Shown: positions 1 to 38,486 of the stretch, piece after piece
How the letters are laid out: every line of letters starts with the position of its first letter
Position numbering within the stretch: the stretch's first letter is position 1
NCBI GenBank assembly: GCA_038046465.1
Contig: JBBSWB010000041.1
Location: 1-58,865 of the forward strand
DNA: 58,865 nt
From: Nanobdellota archaeon
Lineage (GTDB): Archaea > Nanobdellota > Nanobdellia > Woesearchaeales > GW2011-AR9
Reading direction: 5' to 3'
Notes under the pieces: model-generated
Seen by the model: only the letters and a program-made list of their open reading frames with translations
What the model was told of the DNA's origin: nothing
Databases searched by the model: none
Position numbers and translations under genes: made by a program

Positions 1-98
1 GATTTCTGTACTCGAGAATATAGATTAAATCACTTCAGAATACTGAAGTATTACTTAAATGCAAAAACTTTATAAAGACTTAATTGACAAAAGCAAGA

Positions 99-785
99 AT
101 GGCTGAAAAAATTAAATTACATGATTTTGTAGAAGTAGACTATACTGGAAAGCTTCCAGAAGGGCTGGTATTTGACACCACTATAGAAAAAGTGGCTAAA
201 GAAAATGATATGTATTCTGCACAGATGAAATTTTCTCCCGCTACAGTTTGTGTGGGGGAAAGACAAATTCTGCCTGGATTAGACCAAGAATTAGAAGGAA
301 AAGAAATTGGAATAGAATATACGATTACTTTACCTCCTGAAAAGGCCTTTGGTAAAAGAGATATTAAGAGAATGAAAATTATTCCGGCAGGAACTTTTAA
401 AGAACATAAAATAAACCCTCAGCCTGGACTGCAAGTAGATATTGACGGAGAGATGGGCATCATAACCCATATTTCCGGAGGAAGAATCATTGTTAATTTT
501 AATCATCCTTTAGCTGGAAAAGAAGTTATTTACACTTTCAAAATAAATCGAAAAATTGAAGACGATCAGGAAAAAGTAATCGCTTTCTTGTCTACTTTGC
601 TAGGTCTTCCAAAAGAAAAAACAGAAGTGAAAGTAGTTGAAAACAAAGCAACGGTAATTTTGCCAATAGAACTTCCTGCGCCAGTAACGGATCTGCTTAA
701 GAAAAGACTGGTAGAAGTAACTTCCTTAACCGAAGTAGTATTCGAGAAAAAAGAAGCTACTAAAGAAACAAAAGCTAAGAAATAA
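99..785 (+). CDS. FKBP-type peptidyl-prolyl cis-trans isomerase (archaeal long FKBP/SlyD-like)
   Basis: ORF 84..785 with FKBP-like motifs (VDYTGKL..G.VFDTT, ILPGLDQEL.GK, NFNHPLAGK). A TATA-like TTTATAAA at 69-76 favours the ATG at 99 over the TTG at 84. Confidence 0.85.
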   Translation: MAEKIKLHDFVEVDYTGKLPEGLVFDTTIEKVAKENDMYSAQMKFSPATVCVGERQILPGLDQELEGKEIGIEYTITLPPEKAFGKRDIKRMKIIPAGTFKEHKINPQPGLQVDIDGEMGIITHISGGRIIVNFNHPLAGKEVIYTFKINRKIEDDQEKVIAFLSTLLGLPKEKTEVKVVENKATVILPIELPAPVTDLLKKRLVEVTSLTEVVFEKKEATKETKAKK

Positions 786-880: not shown

Positions 881-2449
881 ATGTCAGAAAAAAGAGAACT
901 AAAGAGATTAAGCGAAGATTTAGTTCTAGCTTTAAATTGGGCTGCTGCGGAATATTATTATTTTAAGGAATTACAAAAGGAATTTGAAATTATAGGAAAA
1001 AAACGCGATGAAGCGCCTTATGCTAAAGAAGCTCGTCGAGTAGCAAAAATTGTTAAGTATATTTGCTCAGCAGAAAGGAGAACAGACCAATTTGAAGAAA
1101 AAGCAAGAAAAAAAAATGAAGATTTTGCTGAAGAATTAAGTAAACGTCTTGGAGAAAATATTGCTTTAATGGATTTAATTAAGGGATTTAGAGCAATCGC
1201 TAAAGAACTGAATGTAGAACATGCACATTTAGCAGCGTTCGCAAGCAGATATGACGGGTTTGTGAATGAATATATCGGTAAACTCGGCGGATATTCAGCA
1301 GCTCATTCTAAACTATATACATATATCAAGAGGTCTCCGGATTTAAAATCAGAAGAGCAGGAGAAAGTTAGTATCGCTGTTTCCAAATTTATAGAGCAAA
1401 CAAAAGAACAAGTTCAAGATGCTCAAAGATGGATCGCCGCTTTAGAAGCGAGCCTGAGGAAAGCTTACAATTATACGTCGGGATTCAAATTGACTGAAAA
1501 GAAAGAAGCCAGGTTAACCGAAAAAGAAGAAAACTTGAAAATCTTGCATGAACAACGCTGGCCCTTTCCAGATAGAGACGAAAGAACAAATTTTCTTGTC
1601 CAACAACCTACGGAAGATTTGCGCCAATTGATTAAAAAAATGGCTCGATATAGGTATGCGCACGGAATCCTTCAAACATCTTATTTTTTTACTGAAGGCA
1701 TGCTTCTTGCAATAGATCCATTAATGAAAAAGCAAATAACTTGGAAAGAAATTGTGGAAGATTTACCAATGGCGGATTTGACAGAAGAAGGCCGTTCTAA
1801 TTTACAGCATTACGCTAAATTGTTTATTTATGGATACCTTAGGGTTTATTTAAAATTAAACAAGGCCGGATATTTCAAGTATTTTCCAAATCACGAAGAA
1901 ACCTGCAAGCTTTATGAATTTATGCGCCAGCTCGTGCATGAAGTGGAAAGAAGCAACGTCGACTTTGTTTATGCAATTGACCGCAGCGGCAGGATTCTAG
2001 GTTTCTTACTTTACCAAGTCTTAAAAAAGCTCGGGAAACTGGGAAAAACAAAATTTTATTTTATGTACGCTACTAAGGAAATGGACGTTGCTCTTTATTC
2101 CGAAAAGCAGAAAAAAGAAATTCGTGGCAAGAAAGTTTTATTGATTGATGATTTTTCTTCAGTAGGTAACACTATGACTTCAACTCTTTCTTATCTTCGA
2201 GCATTCGGACCTGAAAAAGTTATTCCTTATGTATTTGCAAGCTTCGGCTACCGTCCTTTGCGTGGAAGAGAAGATTACCATATTGTTTACGACCAAGAGC
2301 CCAGTTGGTTCTGGAAAAAAGAATATTCCGGTCTAAATGAAAAACCGCACGGAGGAGTAGAAGTCAATAAAGGTGCTAAAGAAATTTCTCGAAAGGTTAG
2401 AAAAGTCTTAATTACCTTTGCCGAAGTCATTGCTGAATATTATTACTGA
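881..2449 (+). CDS. Hypothetical protein: N-terminal helical/coiled-coil region plus C-terminal phosphoribosyltransferase-like domain (paralog of 6891..8402)
   Basis: 522-aa ORF. The C-terminal KKVLLIDDFSSVGNTMTS resembles the PRPP-binding loop of type I PRTases. The N-terminus aligns with 6891..8402 (W.AAE..Y..ELQ, AERR, W..AL.A.L.KA). Confidence 0.6.
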   Translation: MSEKRELKRLSEDLVLALNWAAAEYYYFKELQKEFEIIGKKRDEAPYAKEARRVAKIVKYICSAERRTDQFEEKARKKNEDFAEELSKRLGENIALMDLIKGFRAIAKELNVEHAHLAAFASRYDGFVNEYIGKLGGYSAAHSKLYTYIKRSPDLKSEEQEKVSIAVSKFIEQTKEQVQDAQRWIAALEASLRKAYNYTSGFKLTEKKEARLTEKEENLKILHEQRWPFPDRDERTNFLVQQPTEDLRQLIKKMARYRYAHGILQTSYFFTEGMLLAIDPLMKKQITWKEIVEDLPMADLTEEGRSNLQHYAKLFIYGYLRVYLKLNKAGYFKYFPNHEETCKLYEFMRQLVHEVERSNVDFVYAIDRSGRILGFLLYQVLKKLGKLGKTKFYFMYATKEMDVALYSEKQKKEIRGKKVLLIDDFSSVGNTMTSTLSYLRAFGPEKVIPYVFASFGYRPLRGREDYHIVYDQEPSWFWKKEYSGLNEKPHGGVEVNKGAKEISRKVRKVLITFAEVIAEYYY

Positions 2450-2478
2450 TTTGATTAAGAAATTAAAAAAATTAAAAT

Positions 2479-2622
2479 TTATTTCATTCTTCTTTTTAAT
2501 TTGGCTAAAGCTTCATAATCTGCTTTGGTGCCGCTGCCGCCTTGACATTTGGTTTCTAAATTTTTAAGTTCGTCTTTCAAAACCGAATACCTTCTTTCCA
2601 AATCGCGTTTGCTTATAGTCAT
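2479..2622 (-). CDS. Small coiled-coil protein (47 aa), not in the ORF track
   Basis: My translation: MTISKRDLERRYSVLKDELKNLETKCQGGSGTKADYEALAKLKRRMK. A GGTGA Shine-Dalgarno-like motif lies 6-7 nt upstream of the ATG at 2622, and the stop TAA is at 2479-2481. Confidence 0.4.
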   Translation of the reverse strand: MTISKRDLERRYSVLKDELKNLETKCQGGSGTKADYEALAKLKRRMK

Positions 2623-2783
2623 GTTTTCACCTTTGCTTAGATTAATATTGGATTAAATTTGTTTAATATTAATAAACGAGATTAATAAACTAATACGGAT
2701 TAAGTTAATCTCTTAATCCCCTAAATGATTAAACCTATAAAAAGTTAACTGTTTTTGGAGAATATGTAAAAAGAGATTTATTT

Positions 2784-3059
2784 CTAATCTCCCAAAATTT
2801 TATAGGCAACTAGTGCCCCATAAGGAAGAATCACTTGATCTGGCGATGCAAAACTAAAACTAAAACCCGCAATCAAATCTACAGCAACGGCATAATCTGC
2901 TTTTGCTTTCAGTATTTTAAAATCATTTTTATGGTGGGTTAAATCAACTACAAAAATCTTCTTTTCTTCAAACTTTTTAAAAGCATCTTTAAGCGTGGGC
3001 GCATCTTTAAGTAGATCGACTAGCGAAGGATTCAATGTTTGTTTTTCTGTTGCGGTCAT
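2784..3059 (-). CDS. Hypothetical protein (91 aa)
   Basis: Intact ORF in an otherwise gene-free gap, with no recognisable motif. Confidence 0.4.
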   Translation of the reverse strand: MTATEKQTLNPSLVDLLKDAPTLKDAFKKFEEKKIFVVDLTHHKNDFKILKAKADYAVAVDLIAGFSFSFASPDQVILPYGALVAYKILGD

Positions 3060-3109
3060 AAATTAGTGGAGACTTTATTGGAATTATAAGCTTTTTGGGT
3101 TTGGAGAAT

Positions 3110-3541
3110 TCATTTAAAATTGGTTCTCAAAAAATTATAAATTTCTTCTAAACAATTACAAACTTCTGGGAATTTTAATAATTTCTTCGCTTCCCCAAAT
3201 CTAAACCAAGCAAATCCCTGGTGTTCAGAAGAAATAATCGGGTTTTTACTACATAGGCCCGCAAACAGCACAATTTTACGCAAAGAACCGGAAGGAGCTG
3301 TATACTCATAAGTAAATTCTTTTGATTGTTTATTTTCTTTTATAATAATCATATCTTTATCGGTATTTAAGTTCACTTCTTCCATTAGTTCTCGTGTTGC
3401 TGTTTCATAACAGGTTTCAGAGTTTTCTTGATGTCCCTTTGGAAAATCCCATTCCCCTTGATTGGGGTGTTTTAGTAATAAAAATAAGATTTCTGGTGAT
3501 TTGCGGTATAATACAAACCCGCAAGAAATTTCCTTTTTCAT
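3110..3541 (-). CDS. NUDIX hydrolase
   Basis: Nudix box G.....E.......REL.EE..L is present as GHQENSETCYETATRELMEEVNL. Confidence 0.85.
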   Translation of the reverse strand: MKKEISCGFVLYRKSPEILFLLLKHPNQGEWDFPKGHQENSETCYETATRELMEEVNLNTDKDMIIIKENKQSKEFTYEYTAPSGSLRKIVLFAGLCSKNPIISSEHQGFAWFRFGEAKKLLKFPEVCNCLEEIYNFLRTNFK

Positions 3542-3739
3542 ACTTAGTTTATTTTTAAATTTTATTTATATACTTTTCTAAATAATATTTCTAAATAGTA
3601 TGCTCCTTTTAACTTCTTTTAACTCATTTTAACCCGCGTTGAGAAGATAGGTTTCAGTGCAATAATCTTTATATATCCTTTCTTTTTTTAATTAAGCAAG
3701 GGATTAGTTGAGGGTAGTTAAAAAAAGGTGGTTTTTAAG

Positions 3740-4945
3740 ATGGATAATTATAACGATAATACTTATAAAGAAAATTTTGCTGAAAAAAAAATAGTTAGCC
3801 CGCTGGAAAAAACTTCACGGGAAGTCCGAACTTCTAAAGAAGCAGAGTATTATAAAGAACCGGTTCGCGCTGAACAAATTTCTCATAAGAAAGCTAATGC
3901 TGATATTGACGCGGAATTAGAACAATTAATTGCTGCCCAAAAAACAAAGATAAAAGTTATTGGTTGTGGGGGAGCAGGTAATAATACGATTAACCGCATT
4001 TCTGAAGTAGGAATAAAAGGTATTGAAACCGTTGCTATAAATACGGATGCTCAAGACTTGTTATATACTTCTGCGGATAAAAAGATTCTGATTGGAAAAG
4101 AATTAACCCAAGGATTGGGAGCAGGTTCAAATCCGCGTATAGGAGAAGAAGCGGCTAAAGAAAACGAACACGAACTTAAAAAGATGCTGGAAGGAGCAGA
4201 TATGATTTTTATTACCTGCGGTTTAGGCGGAGGAACGGGAACGGGTAGTGCTCCTTTTGTAGCCCAATTAGCTAAAAAAGTAGGAATCCTTAGTGTAGGT
4301 ATTGTAACTATTCCTTTTTCCATGGAAGGTTCACACCGCTTTGAAAATGCCATGATGGGATTAGAAAAGTTAGAACAGAATATTAATACTTTAATTGTTA
4401 TTCCTAATGAAAAATTATTGGAGATAGCTCCTAATTTACCGTTGCAAACTGCATTTAAGATTGCTGATGAAATTTTAACCAACGCCGTTAAAGGGATTGC
4501 TGAATTAGTTACTAAAGCCGGATTAGTCAACCTTGATTTTGCTGACGTAAAAGCAATTATGGGTGAAGGCGGAGTAGCGTTGATTGGCGTAGGAGAATCT
4601 GATTCGGAAAATCGCGCCGAAGAATCCGTGCACAAAGCTTTAGAAAATCCTTTGATTGATGTAGATATATCCAATGCTACTGGCGCTTTAATCAATATTT
4701 GCGGCGGAGAAAGCCTTTCTCTGGACGAATCCCGAAAAATTGTGGAAACAGTAGCCCGAAGTCTTGACCCTAAAGCAAAAATAATTTGGGGAGCACAGAT
4801 CTCTAAAGATTTAGAAAGAACTATCCGGACTATGCTAATCATTACGGGAGTAAGTTCGGAACAGATTTTCGGAGAAGACAATACTTATTTCCAACGAAAA
4901 AAAGAGCAAACTGAAGACGATTTGGGAATAGAATTTGTGAGTTGA
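3740..4945 (+). CDS. ftsZ: Cell division GTPase FtsZ
   Basis: GCGGAGNNTINR and GGGTGTGSAP tubulin/FtsZ signatures. AAGGTGG lies 9 nt upstream of the ATG at 3740; the ORF track opens at the GTG at 3728. There is an N-terminal extension of about 70 aa. Confidence 0.95.
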   Translation: MDNYNDNTYKENFAEKKIVSPLEKTSREVRTSKEAEYYKEPVRAEQISHKKANADIDAELEQLIAAQKTKIKVIGCGGAGNNTINRISEVGIKGIETVAINTDAQDLLYTSADKKILIGKELTQGLGAGSNPRIGEEAAKENEHELKKMLEGADMIFITCGLGGGTGTGSAPFVAQLAKKVGILSVGIVTIPFSMEGSHRFENAMMGLEKLEQNINTLIVIPNEKLLEIAPNLPLQTAFKIADEILTNAVKGIAELVTKAGLVNLDFADVKAIMGEGGVALIGVGESDSENRAEESVHKALENPLIDVDISNATGALINICGGESLSLDESRKIVETVARSLDPKAKIIWGAQISKDLERTIRTMLIITGVSSEQIFGEDNTYFQRKKEQTEDDLGIEFVS

Positions 4946-4995
4946 GATTTTTTATAATTTTAAAAGTCTAAAAAAATAATCTAAAAAATAAAAAA

Positions 4996-5475
4996 TTATA
5001 TTTCCTGTTTCATGTCTAATTCTATGACCGAGTCAATTTTCCGGATCTCGTACTTGTCTTCTGCTAATGCAGTCATTAAGCCTTCTACATTTAAAAGCTT
5101 ACGAGAGAGCATGGCTAGTTGCGTATGGTAATGCCTGACTTCATCTCTATTCATTAATTCACCAGTGCTCCACCATTTCCATTGTTCCCGGACAGGATTC
5201 TGTCTAACTTGCTCTACTTCTCGACGTACGTGGTCCCTTAAATCAACTAAATTCATTAAGGTTTCGTCTATGCACCTTAAATGGGATTCCATTCTTTGGT
5301 CTTCGAAGTGGGTTCTGCAATCGTTCCCTGTTGGCTCGGATTGCACTAAGTGCACCGCTGAGCTGAACCTATTTTCAATCACGGCGTATAAACCGTCTCT
5401 CTGTAAGAGATTAGTGTTTTCGTCTACTAAAGCCAGGTATTCTGGCCGATTTGCGTCTTTACATGTTTTTTTCAT
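4996..5475 (-). CDS. Hypothetical protein (159 aa), compositionally atypical
   Basis: Intact ORF with a strong GGAGGAG Shine-Dalgarno about 8 nt upstream. It is visibly more GC-rich and more R/H/W-rich than its neighbours. Confidence 0.55.
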   Translation of the reverse strand: MKKTCKDANRPEYLALVDENTNLLQRDGLYAVIENRFSSAVHLVQSEPTGNDCRTHFEDQRMESHLRCIDETLMNLVDLRDHVRREVEQVRQNPVREQWKWWSTGELMNRDEVRHYHTQLAMLSRKLLNVEGLMTALAEDKYEIRKIDSVIELDMKQEI

Positions 5476-5601
5476 TTTTGTTCTCCTCCCCGTTTATCTC
5501 CCGTAGGATGTTGTCAAAGGACTGGTCCTTTGAGCAAAGCCCGGTCGGCTTTTTTATAGCTTGGTCTGTTTAGTTATGGTAACTAAAGCAGAATTCCAAT
5601 G

Positions 5602-5663
5602 GTTTGAATTTAGAGTAAGATTATAAGACAAGATTTACAGTCTTAGAAAATCTAAATTCAAAC
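5602..5663. repeat. Long inverted repeat/hairpin (13-bp arms GTTTGAATTTAGA / TCTAAATTCAAAC with a nested TAAGAC/GTCTTA)
   Basis: Read directly from the sequence. It lies inside the 435-bp gap between the divergent genes 4996..5475 and 5911..6840. Confidence 0.6.
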
Positions 5664-5855
5664 GTAACTAAAATAAATAAAAGTAGAACTAACTAAAAGA
5701 ACTTTACCCGATCCTTTGCTAGTTTTTTGTTTCATGTTAGTTGAAAATAACACCAAATATATAAACCTTTTGGTTATTTTGTCACAATTGAGTAGTTACG
5801 AGTACAAGAAGAGGCACTTTAAATTGTTCTTAAATAAAGTAACTACTATTTAGTA

Positions 5856-5870
5856 GCGAAAGATTTATAA
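5856..5870 (+). promoter_or_regulatory. BRE/TATA-like promoter motif GCGAAAGATTTATAA
   Basis: The identical 15-mer recurs at 47762-47776. It lies about 40 nt upstream of the ATG at 5911, with AAGGGGG Shine-Dalgarno-like sequence in between. Confidence 0.5.
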
Positions 5871-5910
5871 AGATAGGCTATTTTTAGTCATTGAATAAGG
5901 GGGTATTAAA

Positions 5911-6840
5911 ATGGATATTAAAAAAATAAGAGCAGAACTGGAAACACTTGTTATAGATAACCCGGAAAATAGATTCTATCAACGAACAGGTTTACCAATG
6001 CCAAGCAATAGGGATAAGAGCTGGGATTATAACCGGGGCGTTATTAATTTAAACGCTTATGGTATGGGTATTCTTTTTGGTCGAGAAGCATATTTAGAAC
6101 AACTTTTACAAACCTTGCCAGCACAAGATGAAACTTCAGAAGAAGCACAACAAGAAGTTAAAAAAATGCTAGCTCTGGAAGTATATGACAATATTGCAAA
6201 AAGACTAGAAAAATTAGCTATATCTTTACAATCTTCTTGGGAATATAAAGAAAGGGCCAGGCAACTTTGGGATGACGTCCGCGAATACGGTAGAAAATCT
6301 CAGTCCTGCAAAAAAGAAATAACTCATCCAACAGTTTTGCAGTCTCTGCGCTATCAAGAGGCCCTAACTTATGAACAAGACAATCGAACAAAATTGGATA
6401 TGGGTGACGAACATAACCGTGATCGATTTTGTGTTGAAACAGCGGGGCGCTTATGGGCTATTGCTGGGGAAACAGAAAAAGCAGTAAATTATTTTAACCA
6501 AGGCGGGCCATATAGTTATCCCGTTGCTGCTGCTACTTTTGAACGGGTAGGAGATCGGAAAAACGCCCGGGCTTTTTGGATAAAAGCTGCAGAAGACCCT
6601 CAAGGTTACAGCGATCAGCAAGATGTTGATGCTGCGGAATATTGGTTAAAAGTTGGAAATCTTGAGAACGCATTAGCACGTTATGAACGAGCAATGAACT
6701 ATTGGATTTCACAAGATGGGAGTATTGACCTGCATGGTGAAGAAAAACCAGGAAGAGCTGAAGCTGAATCATTAAGAAAACAGGTTGTAGAACCACTAAA
6801 ACAACGGCTTAAACGGAAACAAAAGAAAGCTCGAAAATAA
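5911..6840 (+). CDS. Hypothetical protein (309 aa) with TPR-like C-terminal helices and a basic tail
   Basis: Intact ORF with promoter motif and Shine-Dalgarno upstream. No catalytic motif recognised. Confidence 0.55.
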   Translation: MDIKKIRAELETLVIDNPENRFYQRTGLPMPSNRDKSWDYNRGVINLNAYGMGILFGREAYLEQLLQTLPAQDETSEEAQQEVKKMLALEVYDNIAKRLEKLAISLQSSWEYKERARQLWDDVREYGRKSQSCKKEITHPTVLQSLRYQEALTYEQDNRTKLDMGDEHNRDRFCVETAGRLWAIAGETEKAVNYFNQGGPYSYPVAAATFERVGDRKNARAFWIKAAEDPQGYSDQQDVDAAEYWLKVGNLENALARYERAMNYWISQDGSIDLHGEEKPGRAEAESLRKQVVEPLKQRLKRKQKKARK

Positions 6841-6890
6841 ATTTATTTATTTTTTAATTATAATTTCTTAGTTTATTATCATCAACTTTT

Positions 6891-8402
6891 TTATTCCGTC
6901 GCTTCGCCTAAATAGTAATATACTCTGCCAAAAGCGATTAGAAGTTCTTTAATGAAGCTGATTCTGGCAGTTTGTTCTGGAGCTTCTCCGCTGGGAAATA
7001 CAGTACTATATAATTTTGGTTTTTCCTGCATTTCCTGAAGATGTGAAAGCGGAATAATTTTGCCGCGCCTAGTTCTTACAAATAAAGATGTTGGACGGAT
7101 TCGGTATTTTTTGCATCTATCTATTTCGGTCTGAATTTCAATTTCTAATTTATAATCCTTAGCAATAAAAGCTTCATGGCGAAGATCATCAAGCTGCTCC
7201 AGCCTTTTTTTTAAGTTGTTTCTTTCAGCGGCAGGAGTTAAATTTATTTCTTGATGTTCTTTAGGATCATCGTATCCCCGGTAATGAATCCCTTCTCTTT
7301 GAAAAGCTCGACTAATTCGGTCAATGGTTCCGCCGCGGCTGCTAAAATCTAAAATAGTAAAAGTATCAGCTTTATTCTTTTTTAAAATAAGTTTTACCTG
7401 CTCATTTAAATAGATTATAGCCTCTTTCGATGATTTTTCTTCATCATCATAAGCTGCAGGAGGGGGTTGGATAGTTAACAGTTTTAAACCTTTTCCTAAT
7501 CCTCCCCTTAACATCTCTTGATGGATTCCTTTAGCAACATAATAATTAAACAGGCTACCTAGTAAAGGAAATAAAACTAAGTGATCTGGTGGAGATGCAT
7601 ATTTCAGTAAATGTTTTTTTATAACTCCTGCCGACCAACCCAATTGCAGCAGTAAATCATTATATACCAAATGAAAATTTTTAAAAAAATAAATATCGGC
7701 AGTTTCCCTTCTTATTTTTTTACTGCCTTTCAATCCTAAGGTTCGGAGCTGTCTTCTTCGGAAAAGTTCTGCTAACGTTTTTTTCTGTTTCTTTTCGGGT
7801 TGACTTAAAACCGCAACCACATCGTCCACAGATTTTACTTTATGCAAGATATTCTGTTCAGTTTCAATTTCTTCAAAAATATCTTTGGCTTTAATTAGAG
7901 CTGCATCTAAAGCAGAAACCCACAAAACTAACTGTTTTATTTCGGTTTTCAAATGGGTAAGTTCTTGCTCAACTTTAGTTAACTGGGGTGTCCGATCATG
8001 AAAAGTATTACCCCATCTAACTGGAGCATATTTTTGTTTTCTTTGGACAGCAGTACGCAGCCCATTTAACTCTTCTCTTAATTTACCAACATAAAAAGAA
8101 CCGTATTTTATTAACATCCCGGCAGGGATTTCTATTTGCTTAAGGGTTTCTTCGATTTCTTTCCTAGGTATTTCTTCTTTTCGGGCTGCTTTTAGTTCAG
8201 TAAGAATTTTAGTTACGTCTTTCTCCGCTCTCCGTTCAGCTTTTCCGATGTAATTAATACAAGCAAGGGTTTGCCTCTCATCAAAATATTGCTCCATATC
8301 TAGAAGCTGCTGCAACTCTTGTAGATATTTAAATTCAGCCGCTAGCCATTTAATGGCATGAACCACATCTTTAGTCGGTTTGGTAGACACGTTAATAAGC
8401 AA
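6891..8402 (-). CDS. Hypothetical protein: paralog of 881..2449 with a degenerate PRTase-like C-terminal domain
   Basis: 503-aa ORF with N-terminal motifs shared with 881..2449. The PRPP-loop equivalent FTILDFSSRGGTIDRI has lost the acidic pair. Confidence 0.6.
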   Translation of the reverse strand: MLINVSTKPTKDVVHAIKWLAAEFKYLQELQQLLDMEQYFDERQTLACINYIGKAERRAEKDVTKILTELKAARKEEIPRKEIEETLKQIEIPAGMLIKYGSFYVGKLREELNGLRTAVQRKQKYAPVRWGNTFHDRTPQLTKVEQELTHLKTEIKQLVLWVSALDAALIKAKDIFEEIETEQNILHKVKSVDDVVAVLSQPEKKQKKTLAELFRRRQLRTLGLKGSKKIRRETADIYFFKNFHLVYNDLLLQLGWSAGVIKKHLLKYASPPDHLVLFPLLGSLFNYYVAKGIHQEMLRGGLGKGLKLLTIQPPPAAYDDEEKSSKEAIIYLNEQVKLILKKNKADTFTILDFSSRGGTIDRISRAFQREGIHYRGYDDPKEHQEINLTPAAERNNLKKRLEQLDDLRHEAFIAKDYKLEIEIQTEIDRCKKYRIRPTSLFVRTRRGKIIPLSHLQEMQEKPKLYSTVFPSGEAPEQTARISFIKELLIAFGRVYYYLGEATE

Positions 8403-8571: not shown

Positions 8572-8760
8572 ATGGACTTTGAAGAAACTAAAACGACTAA
8601 AGTCAAAAGATTTATAAAGGAAACCATTCGGGTTTTGCGTATAACTAAGAAACCCAATAAAGAAGAATACAAAAGTATTGTTAAAGTTACTGGTTTAGGA
8701 ATATGCATCATTGGAGCAATTGGGTTCATCATATTCCTGTTAAAACAACTATTATTTTAA
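8572..8760 (+). CDS. secE: Preprotein translocase subunit SecE/Sec61-gamma
   Basis: 62 aa with a single C-terminal TM helix and basic N-terminus. It sits immediately upstream of spt5, the conserved archaeal order. Confidence 0.85.
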   Translation: MDFEETKTTKVKRFIKETIRVLRITKKPNKEEYKSIVKVTGLGICIIGAIGFIIFLLKQLLF

Positions 8761-8776
8761 AAAAGCAGAAATACAA

Positions 8777-9259
8777 ATGGCAGAAACACAGATATTTGGA
8801 TTAAGAACTGCAGCTAATCGAGAAGATCAGGTAGTAGACTATTTAATTTCTAAATTACAAAAACATCCTAAAGGCATTTTAACCGTAATCCGACCACATG
8901 GAATGAGAGGATATATTTTTATTGAAGCTGAGTCAAAAACTGAAGCAGAAGCAGTTCTGCAAGGTGTTCCTTATGCCCGTGGATTATTACCTCACGAAAT
9001 TCCTTACCCGGAAATAGAACATATGCTGGAACAGGTTAAAGTAGAAATGAATATCCGTAAGAATGATATCGTAGAAATTATTTCTGGTCCGTTCAAGCGG
9101 GAAAATGCAAAAGTCATCCGAATCAATAAGCAGAAAGAAGAAATTGTCGTAGAATTATTGGAAGCTGCTGTACCTATTCCTATTACTATTAAAATGGACG
9201 CAGTAAAAGTAGTCAGAAGAGATGAAGATTCTAAAGACGACGACGAAGAAACTGCTTAA
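8777..9259 (+). CDS. spt5: Transcription elongation factor Spt5 (NusG homolog)
   Basis: NGN domain followed by a KOW motif (DIVEIISGPFKRENAKVIRI), downstream of secE. Confidence 0.9.
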   Translation: MAETQIFGLRTAANREDQVVDYLISKLQKHPKGILTVIRPHGMRGYIFIEAESKTEAEAVLQGVPYARGLLPHEIPYPEIEHMLEQVKVEMNIRKNDIVEIISGPFKRENAKVIRINKQKEEIVVELLEAAVPIPITIKMDAVKVVRRDEDSKDDDEETA

Positions 9260-9941: not shown

Positions 9942-10082
9942 TGGACTTGGCGGGACTTTCGTGCAGCAAAATCTTTTTTGCTTGGTGGGCTTCAGCCCGC
10001 CGTACTTGCCTAGATTGCTGGCATTCGAACCCGCAGCCTTTCACATGCGAAGCGAACGCGATAGCCGTTTCGCCACAAGCCC
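9942..10082 (-). tRNA. tRNA-Ala (anticodon CGC) with a 68-nt intron in the T-loop (intron 9956..10023, position 59/60)
   Basis: Manual fold of the minus strand: GGGCTTG TG GCGA AACGGCTA TCGC G TTCGC TTCGCAT GTGAA AGGCT GCGGG TTCGAA [68 nt] T CCCGC CAAGTCC A. G3:U70 is present, and a helix-bulge-helix-bulge-helix motif sits at the junction. Confidence 0.85.
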
Positions 10083-38367: not shown

Positions 38368-38486
38368 GCCCCAGTAGCTTAGTGGCTATAGCACCTGACT
38401 TGTAGCCAACTATCTGCTATGTTTCCAACGAAATATAAGCATAGTAAGATATCAGGAGATCGGGAGTTCAACTCTCCCCTGGGGCT
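38368..38486 (+). tRNA. tRNA-Thr (anticodon TGT) with a canonical 46-nt intron at 37/38 (38405..38450)
   Basis: GCCCCAG TA GCTT AGTGGCTA TAGC A CCTGA CTTGTA [46 nt] A TCAGG AGATC GGGAG TTCAACT CTCCC CTGGGGC T. Central BHB helix CTTG/TAAG with 3-nt bulges. Confidence 0.9.

What the first reader, a model, noticed from the sequence alone, without database searches (positions are those of the whole stretch)
881..8402. Inverted pair of paralogous helical-plus-PRTase-like proteins bracketing ftsZ and a Nudix hydrolase
881..2449 (+) and 6891..8402 (-) share several N-terminal motifs.
- LALNWAAAEYYYFKELQ aligns with AIKWLAAEFKYLQELQ.
- YICSAERR aligns with YIGKAERR.
- RWIAALEASLRKA aligns with LWVSALDAALIKA.

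Both have a C-terminal domain with a type I PRTase-like PRPP loop. It is intact in the first (VLLIDDFSSVGNT) and has lost the acidic pair in the second (FTILDFSSRGGT), suggesting an active/inactive pair. Both end in a YYY-containing tail.

I do not recognise the N-terminal module. They enclose ftsZ, a Nudix hydrolase, three small ORFs and a compositionally odd gene pair. A PRTase fold next to Nudix hints at nucleotide or ADP-ribose chemistry, and the position next to ftsZ hints at a division link. Both ideas are inference only.
Basis: inference. Interest (0 to 1): 0.7.

Follow-up and report, generated by a model that had tools for sequence, protein, structure and literature searches.

The report
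Shared helical head, many different tails
The two genes are distant members of a large, unannotated family of DPANN-archaeal proteins that share a 180-residue helical N-terminal module joined to dozens of unrelated C-terminal domains, and their position around ftsZ and a Nudix gene is not conserved and looks coincidental.

Summary
Both ORFs are real, and their N-terminal ~180 residues are homologous (BLASTP E 1e-8; hhalign 98.9%). Only A (881..2449) has a bona fide type I PRTase domain with an intact PRPP loop (Pfam 44.9 bits, cut-off 26.3). B's C-terminus is a confidently modelled α/β domain with no PRTase profile hit. Its "PRPP loop" (7/11 identities to A) is reached by 34 of 500 shuffles.

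The N-terminal module is the real finding. An exhaustive profile search found 380 clusters at 50% identity. The module starts within the first 35 residues in all but one of the 155 members examined. It has no match in Pfam, NCBIfam, PADLOC, PDB sequences or Foldseek.

Of 155 members, 32 are stand-alone. Another 110 carry C-termini that fall into 71 unrelated clusters, including methyltransferases, peptidoglycan hydrolases, proteases, LRR, HEAT and radical SAM domains.

A and B are not each other's closest paralogues. None of about 20 independent related loci has ftsZ or this Nudix nearby. B's conserved neighbour is secE-spt5; A-type genes elsewhere follow asnA-asnC.

My best reading is that the module is a shared docking or targeting handle. 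That is inferred, and its partner is unknown. The division and ADP-ribose ideas are not supported.

The parts
881..2449 (+). Gene A, 522 aa: N-terminal module, then a helical linker, then a type I PRTase-fold domain, then a terminal helix
   Evidence: ORF. Full-length homologues at 39-51% identity, P0002, P0003 and P0006 (P0005 at 41% over 57%). An identical copy lies on a Hainich groundwater contig, L014.
881..1495 (+). A, N-terminal four-helix module (aa 1-205). Motifs: LALNWAAAEYYY, YICSAERR, SRYDG, WIAALEASL
   Evidence: HMM of the module scores 199.5 bits. Alignment. hhalign to the B family.
1496..1915 (+). A, helical linker (aa 206-345) with the 'L-K-I-L-H-x-x-R-W-P' motif and one 'ITWKEIVEDLP' repeat. 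This region is shared with the largest C-terminal cluster of the family (27 members)
   Evidence: One related member scores HEAT_2 at E 1.8e-34.
1916..2314 (+). A, type I phosphoribosyltransferase-fold domain (aa 346-478)
   Evidence: Pfam PF00156 at 44.9 bits, cut-off 26.3. Best PDB sequence hits are PRPP synthetase 3lpn (E 4e-4) and purine PRTase GpT-2 (E 2.4e-3). Translation.
2135..2173 (+). A, PRPP-binding loop VLLIDDFSSVGNT with an intact acidic pair
   Evidence: Translation. D423, G429 and T431 are invariant and position 424 is D or E in 7 relatives.
6891..8402 (-). Gene B, 503 aa (or 499 aa from codon 5): N-terminal module, then a linker, then an α/β domain of unknown family, then a terminal helix ending in YYY
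   Evidence: ORF. Homologues P0009 (79%), P0010 (66%) and P0011 (39%); P0080.
7857..8402 (-). B, N-terminal four-helix module (aa 1-182). Motifs: AIKWLAAEFKYL, YIGKAERR, GSFYVG, WVSALDAAL
   Evidence: Translation. HMM score 230.5 bits. AF2 helices 8-35, 42-76, 81-124 and 138-188, with 10-residue block mean pLDDT about 60-80.
7113..7595 (-). B, α/β three-layer domain (aa 270-430, strand-helix repeats). Rossmann- or flavodoxin-like; PRTase ancestry is possible but unproven
   Evidence: AF2 pLDDT is mostly 80-96 here. Foldseek gives no hit at E <= 1e-3; the top hits are generic α/β folds and HGPRT appears only at ranks 37 and 50. No PRTase in the PDB profile search.
7326..7361 (-). B, motif FTILDFSSRGGT, which resembles A's PRPP loop but has one acidic residue
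   Evidence: Translation. Only D352 and T359 are invariant in 5 relatives. The 7/11 match is reached by 34 of 500 shuffles.
3728..4945 (+). ftsZ. A neighbour only, not part of the family or of a conserved unit
   Evidence: Pfam Tubulin and FtsZ_C. Absent from all related loci.
3110..3541 (-). Nudix hydrolase gene. A neighbour only
   Evidence: Pfam NUDIX at 51.5 bits. No orthologue next to family members elsewhere.
8572..9259 (+). secE and spt5/nusG, divergent from B. This is the one neighbourhood of B that is conserved
   Evidence: Pfam SecE, Spt5-NGN and KOW. The same arrangement sits next to the B orthologue P0010 in L012.

Best explanation
A and B are two anciently diverged members of a large, so far unannotated protein family. 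The source names available for family members are Nanoarchaeota or Woesearchaeota (DPANN) archaea.

The family is defined by a ~180-residue N-terminal bundle of four long helices. Its motifs are W-x-A-A-E-[YF], Y-[IV]-G-[KR]-A-E-R-R, S-x-Y-x-G and W-[IV]-x-A-L-[ED]. The module sits at the very N-terminus in all but one member examined. It either stands alone or is fused to one of many unrelated C-terminal regions.

A is the module, a helical linker and a genuine but orphan type I PRTase-fold domain with an intact PRPP loop. B is the module, a linker and an α/β domain of unknown family. B's domain may or may not descend from a PRTase.

The two genes are independent transcription units among housekeeping genes. 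Their flanking of ftsZ and a Nudix gene is an accident of local gene order.

Inferred, not shown: the module acts as a common docking or targeting handle. It would bring diverse catalytic or binding domains to one shared partner or cellular site. Under this reading, A delivers a PRPP- or nucleotide-binding activity there.
For: **Shown**
- The modules of A and B are homologous.
- The exhaustive profile search found 380 clusters at E <= 1e-3 and 259 at E <= 1e-10. Protein lengths run from 83 to 1428 aa.
- The module starts within the first 35 residues in 154 of the 155 members examined.
- Of 155 representatives, 32 are stand-alone. The 110 C-termini of at least 80 aa fall into 71 BLAST clusters.
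- Pfam hits on the tails include methyltransferases, Amidase_2, Peptidase_M15_4, M74, Polysacc_deac_1, Reprolysin, LRR, HEAT, α/β hydrolases, PHP, radical SAM/SPASM, Metallophos, PPDK_N and Pribosyltran.
- The module has no match above noise in Pfam, NCBIfam, PADLOC or PDB sequences. Foldseek finds only generic helical bundles.
- A's PRTase domain is supported.
- Family genes are scattered among housekeeping genes with no recurrent neighbour.
- No copy was found in viral or phage collections.

**Inferred**
- A constant N-terminal head on many unrelated tails is the architecture expected of a shared interaction or targeting domain.
Against: - No partner, localisation or oligomeric state is known.
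- The conserved residues (W, AAE, ERR, S-Y-G, W-AL) could be purely structural packing and salt-bridge positions of the bundle.
- The module could instead regulate the attached domain in cis.
- Stand-alone forms make up most of separate sequence groups: 23 of 31 members there, against 5 of 107 in the fused group. They may therefore have a different role from the fused forms.
- The AF2 confidence for the module is only moderate (pLDDT 60-80).
- Copy number per genome could not be measured.
Confidence: 0.6

Rival explanations
1. Delivery-handle reading. The module is the recognition domain of a non-classical export or hand-over route in these episymbiotic archaea, analogous to PE/PPE or LXG domains of type VII secretion substrates. 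A, B and the other fusions are effectors acting outside the cell or in a host cell.
For: - The architecture is a constant ~180-aa helical N-terminus with highly variable tails.
- Tails include peptidoglycan-active enzymes. One checked example is P0045: module 1-173, Peptidase_M15_4 at 278-374, no signal peptide and no hydrophobic segment.
- These archaea are not expected to make murein, so such enzymes need to leave the cell.
- Cofactor-dependent tails (PRTase, methyltransferase, PPDK-like) would only work inside another cytoplasm.
- A's PRTase scores at a similar low level to the PADLOC models named PsyrT (E 7e-7) and ShosT (E 4e-6), which are PRTase-type proteins of anti-phage systems.
- Nanoarchaeota are reported to be rich in peptidoglycan hydrolases (PMC12352652).
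Against: - The module has no sequence match to LXG, PE, PPE or WXG100.
- No immunity-like or secretion-apparatus gene recurs next to family members.
- Five members carry a Tat-type RRxFLK signal directly after the module. That would be redundant if the module itself drove export.
- The B orthologue is syntenic and A-type genes are conserved in relatives, which suggests stable rather than rapidly exchanged genes.
Confidence: 0.2
2. Cis-regulatory or oligomerisation reading. The module is a four-helix sensor or coiled-coil assembly domain that controls or multimerises whatever enzyme is attached, with no common partner.
For: - The predicted fold is an all-helical bundle, and the best fold matches are generic helical bundles.
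- Tat-anchored members would place the module on the cytoplasmic side of a membrane-anchored extracytoplasmic enzyme, as in one-component transmembrane regulators.
Against: - 32 of 155 members are stand-alone modules with nothing to regulate.
- Many tails are non-enzymatic repeats such as LRR and HEAT.
- The strongly conserved motifs are shared irrespective of the tail.
Confidence: 0.15
3. A and B form an active/inactive PRTase pair that works with FtsZ and the Nudix enzyme, giving a cell-division or ADP-ribose/nucleotide link.
For: - In this window the two genes flank ftsZ and a Nudix gene.
- A has an intact PRPP loop and B has a similar motif lacking one acidic residue.
- There is weak co-linear similarity between the two C-terminal halves: hhalign P 0.0045.
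Against: - No ftsZ or orthologous Nudix lies near any family member in about 20 independent loci.
- B's conserved neighbour is secE-spt5. A-type genes elsewhere follow asnA-asnC or sit next to an IS66 transposase.
- A and B are among the more distant module pairs in the family.
- B has no PRTase profile hit, and the motif match is within chance.
- The genes point in opposite directions and are separated by four or more other transcription units.
Confidence: 0.04

Closest known systems
Type I phosphoribosyltransferases (Pfam PF00156). The nearest solved relatives are archaeal class III PRPP synthetase (PDB 3lpn, 3mbi) and Sulfolobus purine PRTase GpT-2 (4z1o)
   Same: A's residues 346-478 match the family profile above its gathering score. 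They keep the hydrophobic strand, acidic pair and G-x-T PRPP loop.
   Different: - Scores against every curated PRTase subfamily are at most about 20 bits, against cut-offs of 113-322, so the substrate cannot be assigned.
- The domain is embedded behind a 345-residue helical N-terminal region and followed by a family-specific PSW...YSG...GG-EV segment and a terminal helix.
- B does not qualify as a member.
PE/PPE proteins of mycobacteria and LXG proteins of Firmicutes (type VII secretion substrates with a constant helical N-terminal domain and variable C-terminal domains)
   Same: - The logic is the same: an N-terminal helical domain (about 110 to 200 residues in those families, from memory) is always at the N-terminus.
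- It occurs in many paralogues, stand-alone or fused to diverse enzymes and repeats.
   Different: - There is no sequence similarity to the Pfam models of these families.
- The host is archaeal, and no associated secretion or partner genes lie nearby.
- Secretion is untested.
- The comparison is by architecture only. The description of PE/PPE and LXG is from general knowledge and was not tested here.
PRTase-type proteins of anti-phage systems (PADLOC models named PsyrT, ShosT and PRTase_III-A)
   Same: A's PRPP-loop region aligns with these models at E 7e-7 to 4e-6.
   Different: - The matches cover mainly the generic PRPP loop and are no better than matches to housekeeping PRTases.
- No partner genes of those systems are present.
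Tat signal-anchored proteins
   Same: Five family members carry a canonical RRxFLK motif plus an Ala/Thr-rich stretch, followed by typically extracytoplasmic domains (thioredoxin-like, reprolysin-like).
   Different: The twin-arginine motif lies about 170-200 residues from the N-terminus, directly after the module. From general knowledge, such an internal position is unusual. Neither A nor B has this motif.

Membership tests
Type I PRTase (PF00156), protein A | Profile match above the curated gathering score | tested here: met
   44.9 bits against a 26.3 cut-off, residues 346-478. The precomputed PF00156 hit is also present in the relatives P0002-P0007.
Type I PRTase (PF00156), protein A | PRPP-binding loop: hydrophobic strand, two acidic residues, then x4-G-x-T | tested here: met
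   VLLIDDFSSVGNT at 2135..2173. D423, G429 and T431 are invariant, and position 424 is D or E in 7 sequences.
Type I PRTase (PF00156), protein A | Assignment to a characterised subfamily (APRT, HGPRT, OPRT, PRPP synthetase, PyrR, ComF) | tested here: not met
   The best NCBIfam scores are about 20 bits, against cut-offs of 113-322.
Type I PRTase (PF00156), protein A | PRPP-dependent transferase activity | not testable with these tools
   This needs enzyme assays.
Type I PRTase (PF00156), protein B | Profile match to the family | tested here: not met
   No Pfam or NCBIfam hit. No PRTase appears in PDB searches with the sequence or with a 5-sequence profile at E <= 10.
Type I PRTase (PF00156), protein B | Acidic pair in the PRPP loop | tested here: not met
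   ILDF has a single acidic residue. Only D352 and T359 are invariant in 5 relatives.
Type I PRTase (PF00156), protein B | PRTase fold | tested here: inconclusive
   The AF2 α/β domain has pLDDT 80-96. Foldseek finds nothing at E <= 1e-3, and HGPRTs sit at ranks 37 and 50 (E 0.24-0.30) behind other Rossmann- or flavodoxin-like folds.
Type I PRTase (PF00156), protein B | Homology of the C-terminal domain to A's PRTase domain | tested here: inconclusive
   hhalign gives P 0.0045 and 7.7% probability, aligned in register over strand 2 to the loop. The 7/11 motif match is reached by 34 of 500 shuffles.
Constant-head/variable-tail secretion-substrate families (LXG, PE/PPE, polymorphic toxins) | A constant N-terminal helical domain with many unrelated C-terminal domains | tested here: met
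   The module starts within the first 35 residues in 154 of 155 members, and there are 71 C-terminal clusters.
Constant-head/variable-tail secretion-substrate families (LXG, PE/PPE, polymorphic toxins) | Sequence membership in the LXG, PE, PPE or WXG100 profiles | tested here: not met
   No such Pfam hit for A or B (E <= 1), and none among the 25 most frequent weak hits shown for the 66 modules; the other 312 families in that list were not inspected.
Constant-head/variable-tail secretion-substrate families (LXG, PE/PPE, polymorphic toxins) | An adjacent immunity gene or cognate secretion genes | tested here: not met
   No neighbour family recurs across independent loci. A and B have no co-directional downstream small gene.
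Constant-head/variable-tail secretion-substrate families (LXG, PE/PPE, polymorphic toxins) | Export of the protein | not testable with these tools
   This needs proteomics or reporter fusions.
FtsZ-associated division proteins | Conserved gene linkage with ftsZ | tested here: not met
   A phmmer search with the window's FtsZ finds it only in the window among 24 fetched loci.
FtsZ-associated division proteins | Physical interaction with FtsZ | not testable with these tools
   No multimer prediction or experiment is available.

The most novel reading that the evidence does not exclude
The module is the address tag of an undescribed protein hand-over or secretion route in DPANN archaea. It would mark a repertoire of effectors delivered to the environment or into the host cell. 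These include peptidoglycan hydrolases, proteases, methyltransferases, the PRTase of A, and LRR/HEAT binders. Stand-alone modules would act as adaptor or partner subunits.
Probability: 0.15. Interest if true: 0.85.

Novelty: new variant of a known kind. Interest (0 to 1): 0.5.

Why it matters
DPANN archaea are obligate symbionts with tiny genomes full of hypothetical proteins, and how they act on their hosts is largely unknown.

A family of at least 380 sequence clusters that places one conserved head on more than 70 kinds of tail is a concrete handle on that biology. The tails include murein hydrolases without signal peptides and enzymes that need cytoplasmic cofactors.

Finding the head's partner would assign a cellular context to hundreds of unannotated proteins at once. 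It could also reveal an archaeal targeting or delivery system.

For the original claim, the useful result is negative. There is no evidence for a PRTase-FtsZ-Nudix module.

Tried and rejected
- **AF2 of A without an alignment.** It was useless (mean pLDDT 36).
- **Foldseek of the B model.** Neither the PDB nor the viral library gave a hit at E <= 1e-3.
- **Pfam at E <= 1 on 66 modules.** Only coiled-coil noise appeared, such as BLOC1_2, Fib_alpha, ApoLp-III and IcmW. I rejected these as homologues because the hits are scattered over 337 families.
- **PDB profile search with the module.** Only coiled-coil noise at E >= 0.1.
- **Mobile-cassette idea.** No significant inverted or direct DNA repeats bracket 881..8402.
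- **Viral origin.** There were no matches in phage GenBank records or IMG/VR.
- **Toxin-immunity idea.** No recurrent downstream small gene.
- **Genome-collection scans for a copy-number census.** These returned only 3 loci because the back-translated patterns were narrow. I designed degenerate DNA patterns for the AERR motif but did not run them, because thousands of chance hits were expected.
- **Two context look-ups failed.** P0005 and P0158 were not on record.

Full report
**The ORFs and their surroundings.** The window encodes A at 881..2449 (+), 522 aa, and B at 6891..8402 (-), 503 aa from a TTG start. The database version of B starts four codons later and is 499 aa. Several genes lie between them:
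- a 91-aa ORF at 2784..3059 (-);
- a NUDIX gene at 3110..3541 (-), 51.5 bits;
- ftsZ at 3728..4945 (+), with Tubulin at 165 bits and FtsZ_C at 113 bits;
- two ORFs of somewhat higher G+C (0.42-0.44, against 0.30-0.38 nearby) at 4996..5475 (-) and 5911..6840 (+), with no family match.

The flanks are archaeal housekeeping genes. These are a long-type FKBP (84..785), secE, spt5, tRNA-Ala, ribosomal protein S10 and EF-1α.

**Homology of A and B.** BLASTP aligns only the N-terminal ~190 residues, at 26% identity and E 1e-8. Profile-profile comparison of the A family (7 sequences) and the B family (4 sequences) gives 98.9% probability and E 1e-17, again only over columns 8-194. An HMM of the module finds only these two genes in the 58.9-kb window. 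No DNA-level repeat connects them.

**A's C-terminus is a PRTase.** Pfam Pribosyltran scores 44.9 bits against a 26.3 cut-off, at residues 346-478. The PRPP loop VLLIDDFSSVGNT (2135..2173) keeps its acidic pair, G and T in all seven relatives. The nearest solved sequences are an archaeal PRPP synthetase (3lpn, E 4e-4) and purine PRTase GpT-2. No curated PRTase subfamily is approached: about 20 bits against cut-offs of at least 113. A is therefore an orphan PRTase-fold domain whose substrate is unknown. Hits to the PADLOC PRTase models PsyrT and ShosT (E 7e-7 and 4e-6) cover mainly the generic loop.

**B's C-terminus is not demonstrably a PRTase.**
- B has no Pfam, NCBIfam or PADLOC hit.
- No PRTase appears in PDB searches with the sequence or with a five-sequence profile.
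- An AF2 model built on a 44-row alignment gives a confident α/β domain at residues 270-430 (pLDDT mostly 80-96).
- Foldseek finds nothing at E <= 1e-3. The best matches are generic Rossmann-, flavodoxin- and lumazine-synthase-like folds, and HGPRTs appear only at ranks 37 and 50.
- hhalign of the C-terminal halves aligns strand 2 through the loop in register, but at P 0.0045 and 7.7% probability.
- The 7/11 identity of FTILDFSSRGGT to A's loop is reached by 34 of 500 shuffles.
- Only D352 and T359 of that motif are invariant in B's relatives.

A degenerate PRTase ancestry is possible but not shown.

**The N-terminal module defines a large family.** An exhaustive HMMER search of 1.84 billion cluster representatives with the module profile found 380 clusters at E <= 1e-3 and 259 at E <= 1e-10. 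Protein lengths range from 83 to 1428 aa. The match starts within the first 35 residues in 154 of the 155 members examined; the exception, P0029, starts at residue 66.
- Of 155 members examined, 32 are stand-alone proteins of about 180-200 aa.
- Another 110 carry at least 80 further residues, which fall into 71 BLAST clusters, 62 of them singletons.
- Pfam hits on the tails include several methyltransferases, Amidase_2, Peptidase_M15_4, Peptidase_M74, Polysacc_deac_1, Reprolysin-like protease, LRR, HEAT, α/β hydrolases, PHP, radical SAM/SPASM, Metallophos, PPDK_N/PEP-utilisers and Pribosyltran.
- Five members have a twin-arginine RRxFLK motif with an Ala/Thr-rich stretch immediately after the module.
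- Only 5 of 155 have a strongly hydrophobic 19-mer.
- A belongs to the largest tail cluster (27 members), which shares a 'GLxIL..WP' linker and 'ITWxxxVxDLP' helical repeats. B's tail cluster has five members.

**The module has no known relatives.** Pfam, NCBIfam, PADLOC and PDB sequence searches give only scattered coiled-coil noise. The AF2 model shows four long helices at 8-35, 42-76, 81-124 and 138-188, with 10-residue block mean pLDDT about 60-80. Its best fold matches are generic or designed helical bundles. Every source name available for family members is 'hypothetical protein'. The organisms are Nanoarchaeota or Woesearchaeota MAGs. One contig from Hainich groundwater carries a copy identical to A. 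No copy was found in phage or IMG/VR collections.

**A and B are not a special pair.** Their modules are 22% identical. Of 136 other representatives, 93 are closer to A's module than B's is, and 129 are closer to B's than A's is. The nearest relatives of each module carry quite different tails. Stand-alone forms make up most of separate sequence groups: 23 of 31 members there, against 5 of 107 in the group that holds A and B.

**The gene neighbourhood is not conserved.** I fetched 24 loci, about 20 of them independent, with roughly 140 kb of sequence.
- None has ftsZ or an orthologue of this Nudix.
- No neighbour family recurs across lineages.
- The B orthologue P0010 (66% identity) lies divergently next to secE-spt5, as B does in the window.
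- A-type genes in relatives follow asnA-x-asnC (L001, L002, L010, L015). One such locus has two A-type paralogues in tandem. Another A-type gene abuts an IS66 transposase.
- Other members sit between pgk and gap, or next to ribosomal protein genes.
- Two further loci have two family genes within 8 kb (L001, L003). Without copy numbers per genome I cannot tell this from chance.

**Interpretation.**
- *Shown:* there is a new, large, modular family; A is an orphan PRTase fusion; B is a fusion to an unassigned α/β domain; there is no conserved link to ftsZ or Nudix.
- *Inferred:* a constant head on many tails is most simply a shared docking or targeting domain.
- *Export or hand-over route?* It is attractive because murein hydrolases lack any signal peptide, and cofactor-dependent enzymes would need another cytoplasm. 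It is weakened by the internal Tat motifs, by the absence of linked apparatus or immunity genes, and by the stable synteny.
- *Cis-regulatory or oligomerisation role?* This remains possible.

The comparison with PE/PPE and LXG proteins is by architecture only and rests on general knowledge. Sequence membership was tested and not met.

**Verdict.** The functional reading (an active/inactive PRTase pair tied to division or ADP-ribose chemistry) is not supported. What is really there is a previously undescribed DPANN domain family, worth following up for its own sake.

Noticed in passing
Family members P0013, P0033, P0035, P0092 and P0121 (not in the window): A canonical twin-arginine motif (RRxFLK plus an Ala/Thr-rich stretch) lies directly after the N-terminal module, about 170-200 residues from the N-terminus. 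It is followed by extracytoplasmic-type domains (thioredoxin-like, reprolysin-like). An internal Tat signal at this position is unusual.
   Followed up: partly
L001:7232-10924 (the same arrangement occurs in L002 and L015): Two A-type paralogues sit in tandem after asnA-x-asnC. The second is split into 285-aa and 307-aa ORFs, so it is a frameshifted pseudogene or an assembly error. A dCTP deaminase gene follows.
   Followed up: partly
window:4996-6840: Two convergent ORFs (159 aa on the minus strand, 309 aa on the plus strand) have higher G+C (0.42-0.44, against 0.30-0.38 nearby). They have no Pfam, NCBIfam or PADLOC family; the 309-aa protein has only weak TPR/RPN7-like hits. The 309-aa ORF has no phage match; the 159-aa ORF was not searched against phages.
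   Followed up: partly
window:38368-38486 and window:10011-10081: Rfam finds a 119-nt tRNA at 38368..38486 (+), long enough to contain an intron, which ARAGORN did not report. ARAGORN finds tRNA-Ala(CGC) at 10011..10081 (-), which the Rfam gathering search did not list.
   Followed up: no
window:8390-8402: B's start codon is ambiguous. The longest ORF starts at TTG 8402, whereas the database protein (499 aa) starts four codons downstream.
   Followed up: no
window:3728-3946: FtsZ has a ~73-residue N-terminal extension before the Tubulin/FtsZ GTPase domain (the Pfam domain starts at residue 74).
   Followed up: no
Family-wide: Stand-alone modules (~180-195 aa) make up most of separate sequence groups (23 of 31 members), whereas the group containing A and B is almost entirely fused (99 of 107). 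This suggests a distinct stand-alone subfamily that may be the partner or ancestor of the fused forms.
   Followed up: partly
L011:660-3821: The A-type homologue P0003 lies immediately downstream of an IS66-family transposase gene.
   Followed up: no
P0100 (1428 aa) and P0045 (380 aa): These show the extremes of the tail repertoire. In P0100 the module is fused to a PEP-utilising/PPDK_N kinase-type region. In P0045 it is fused to a Peptidase_M15_4 murein peptidase with no signal peptide or membrane segment.
   Followed up: partly
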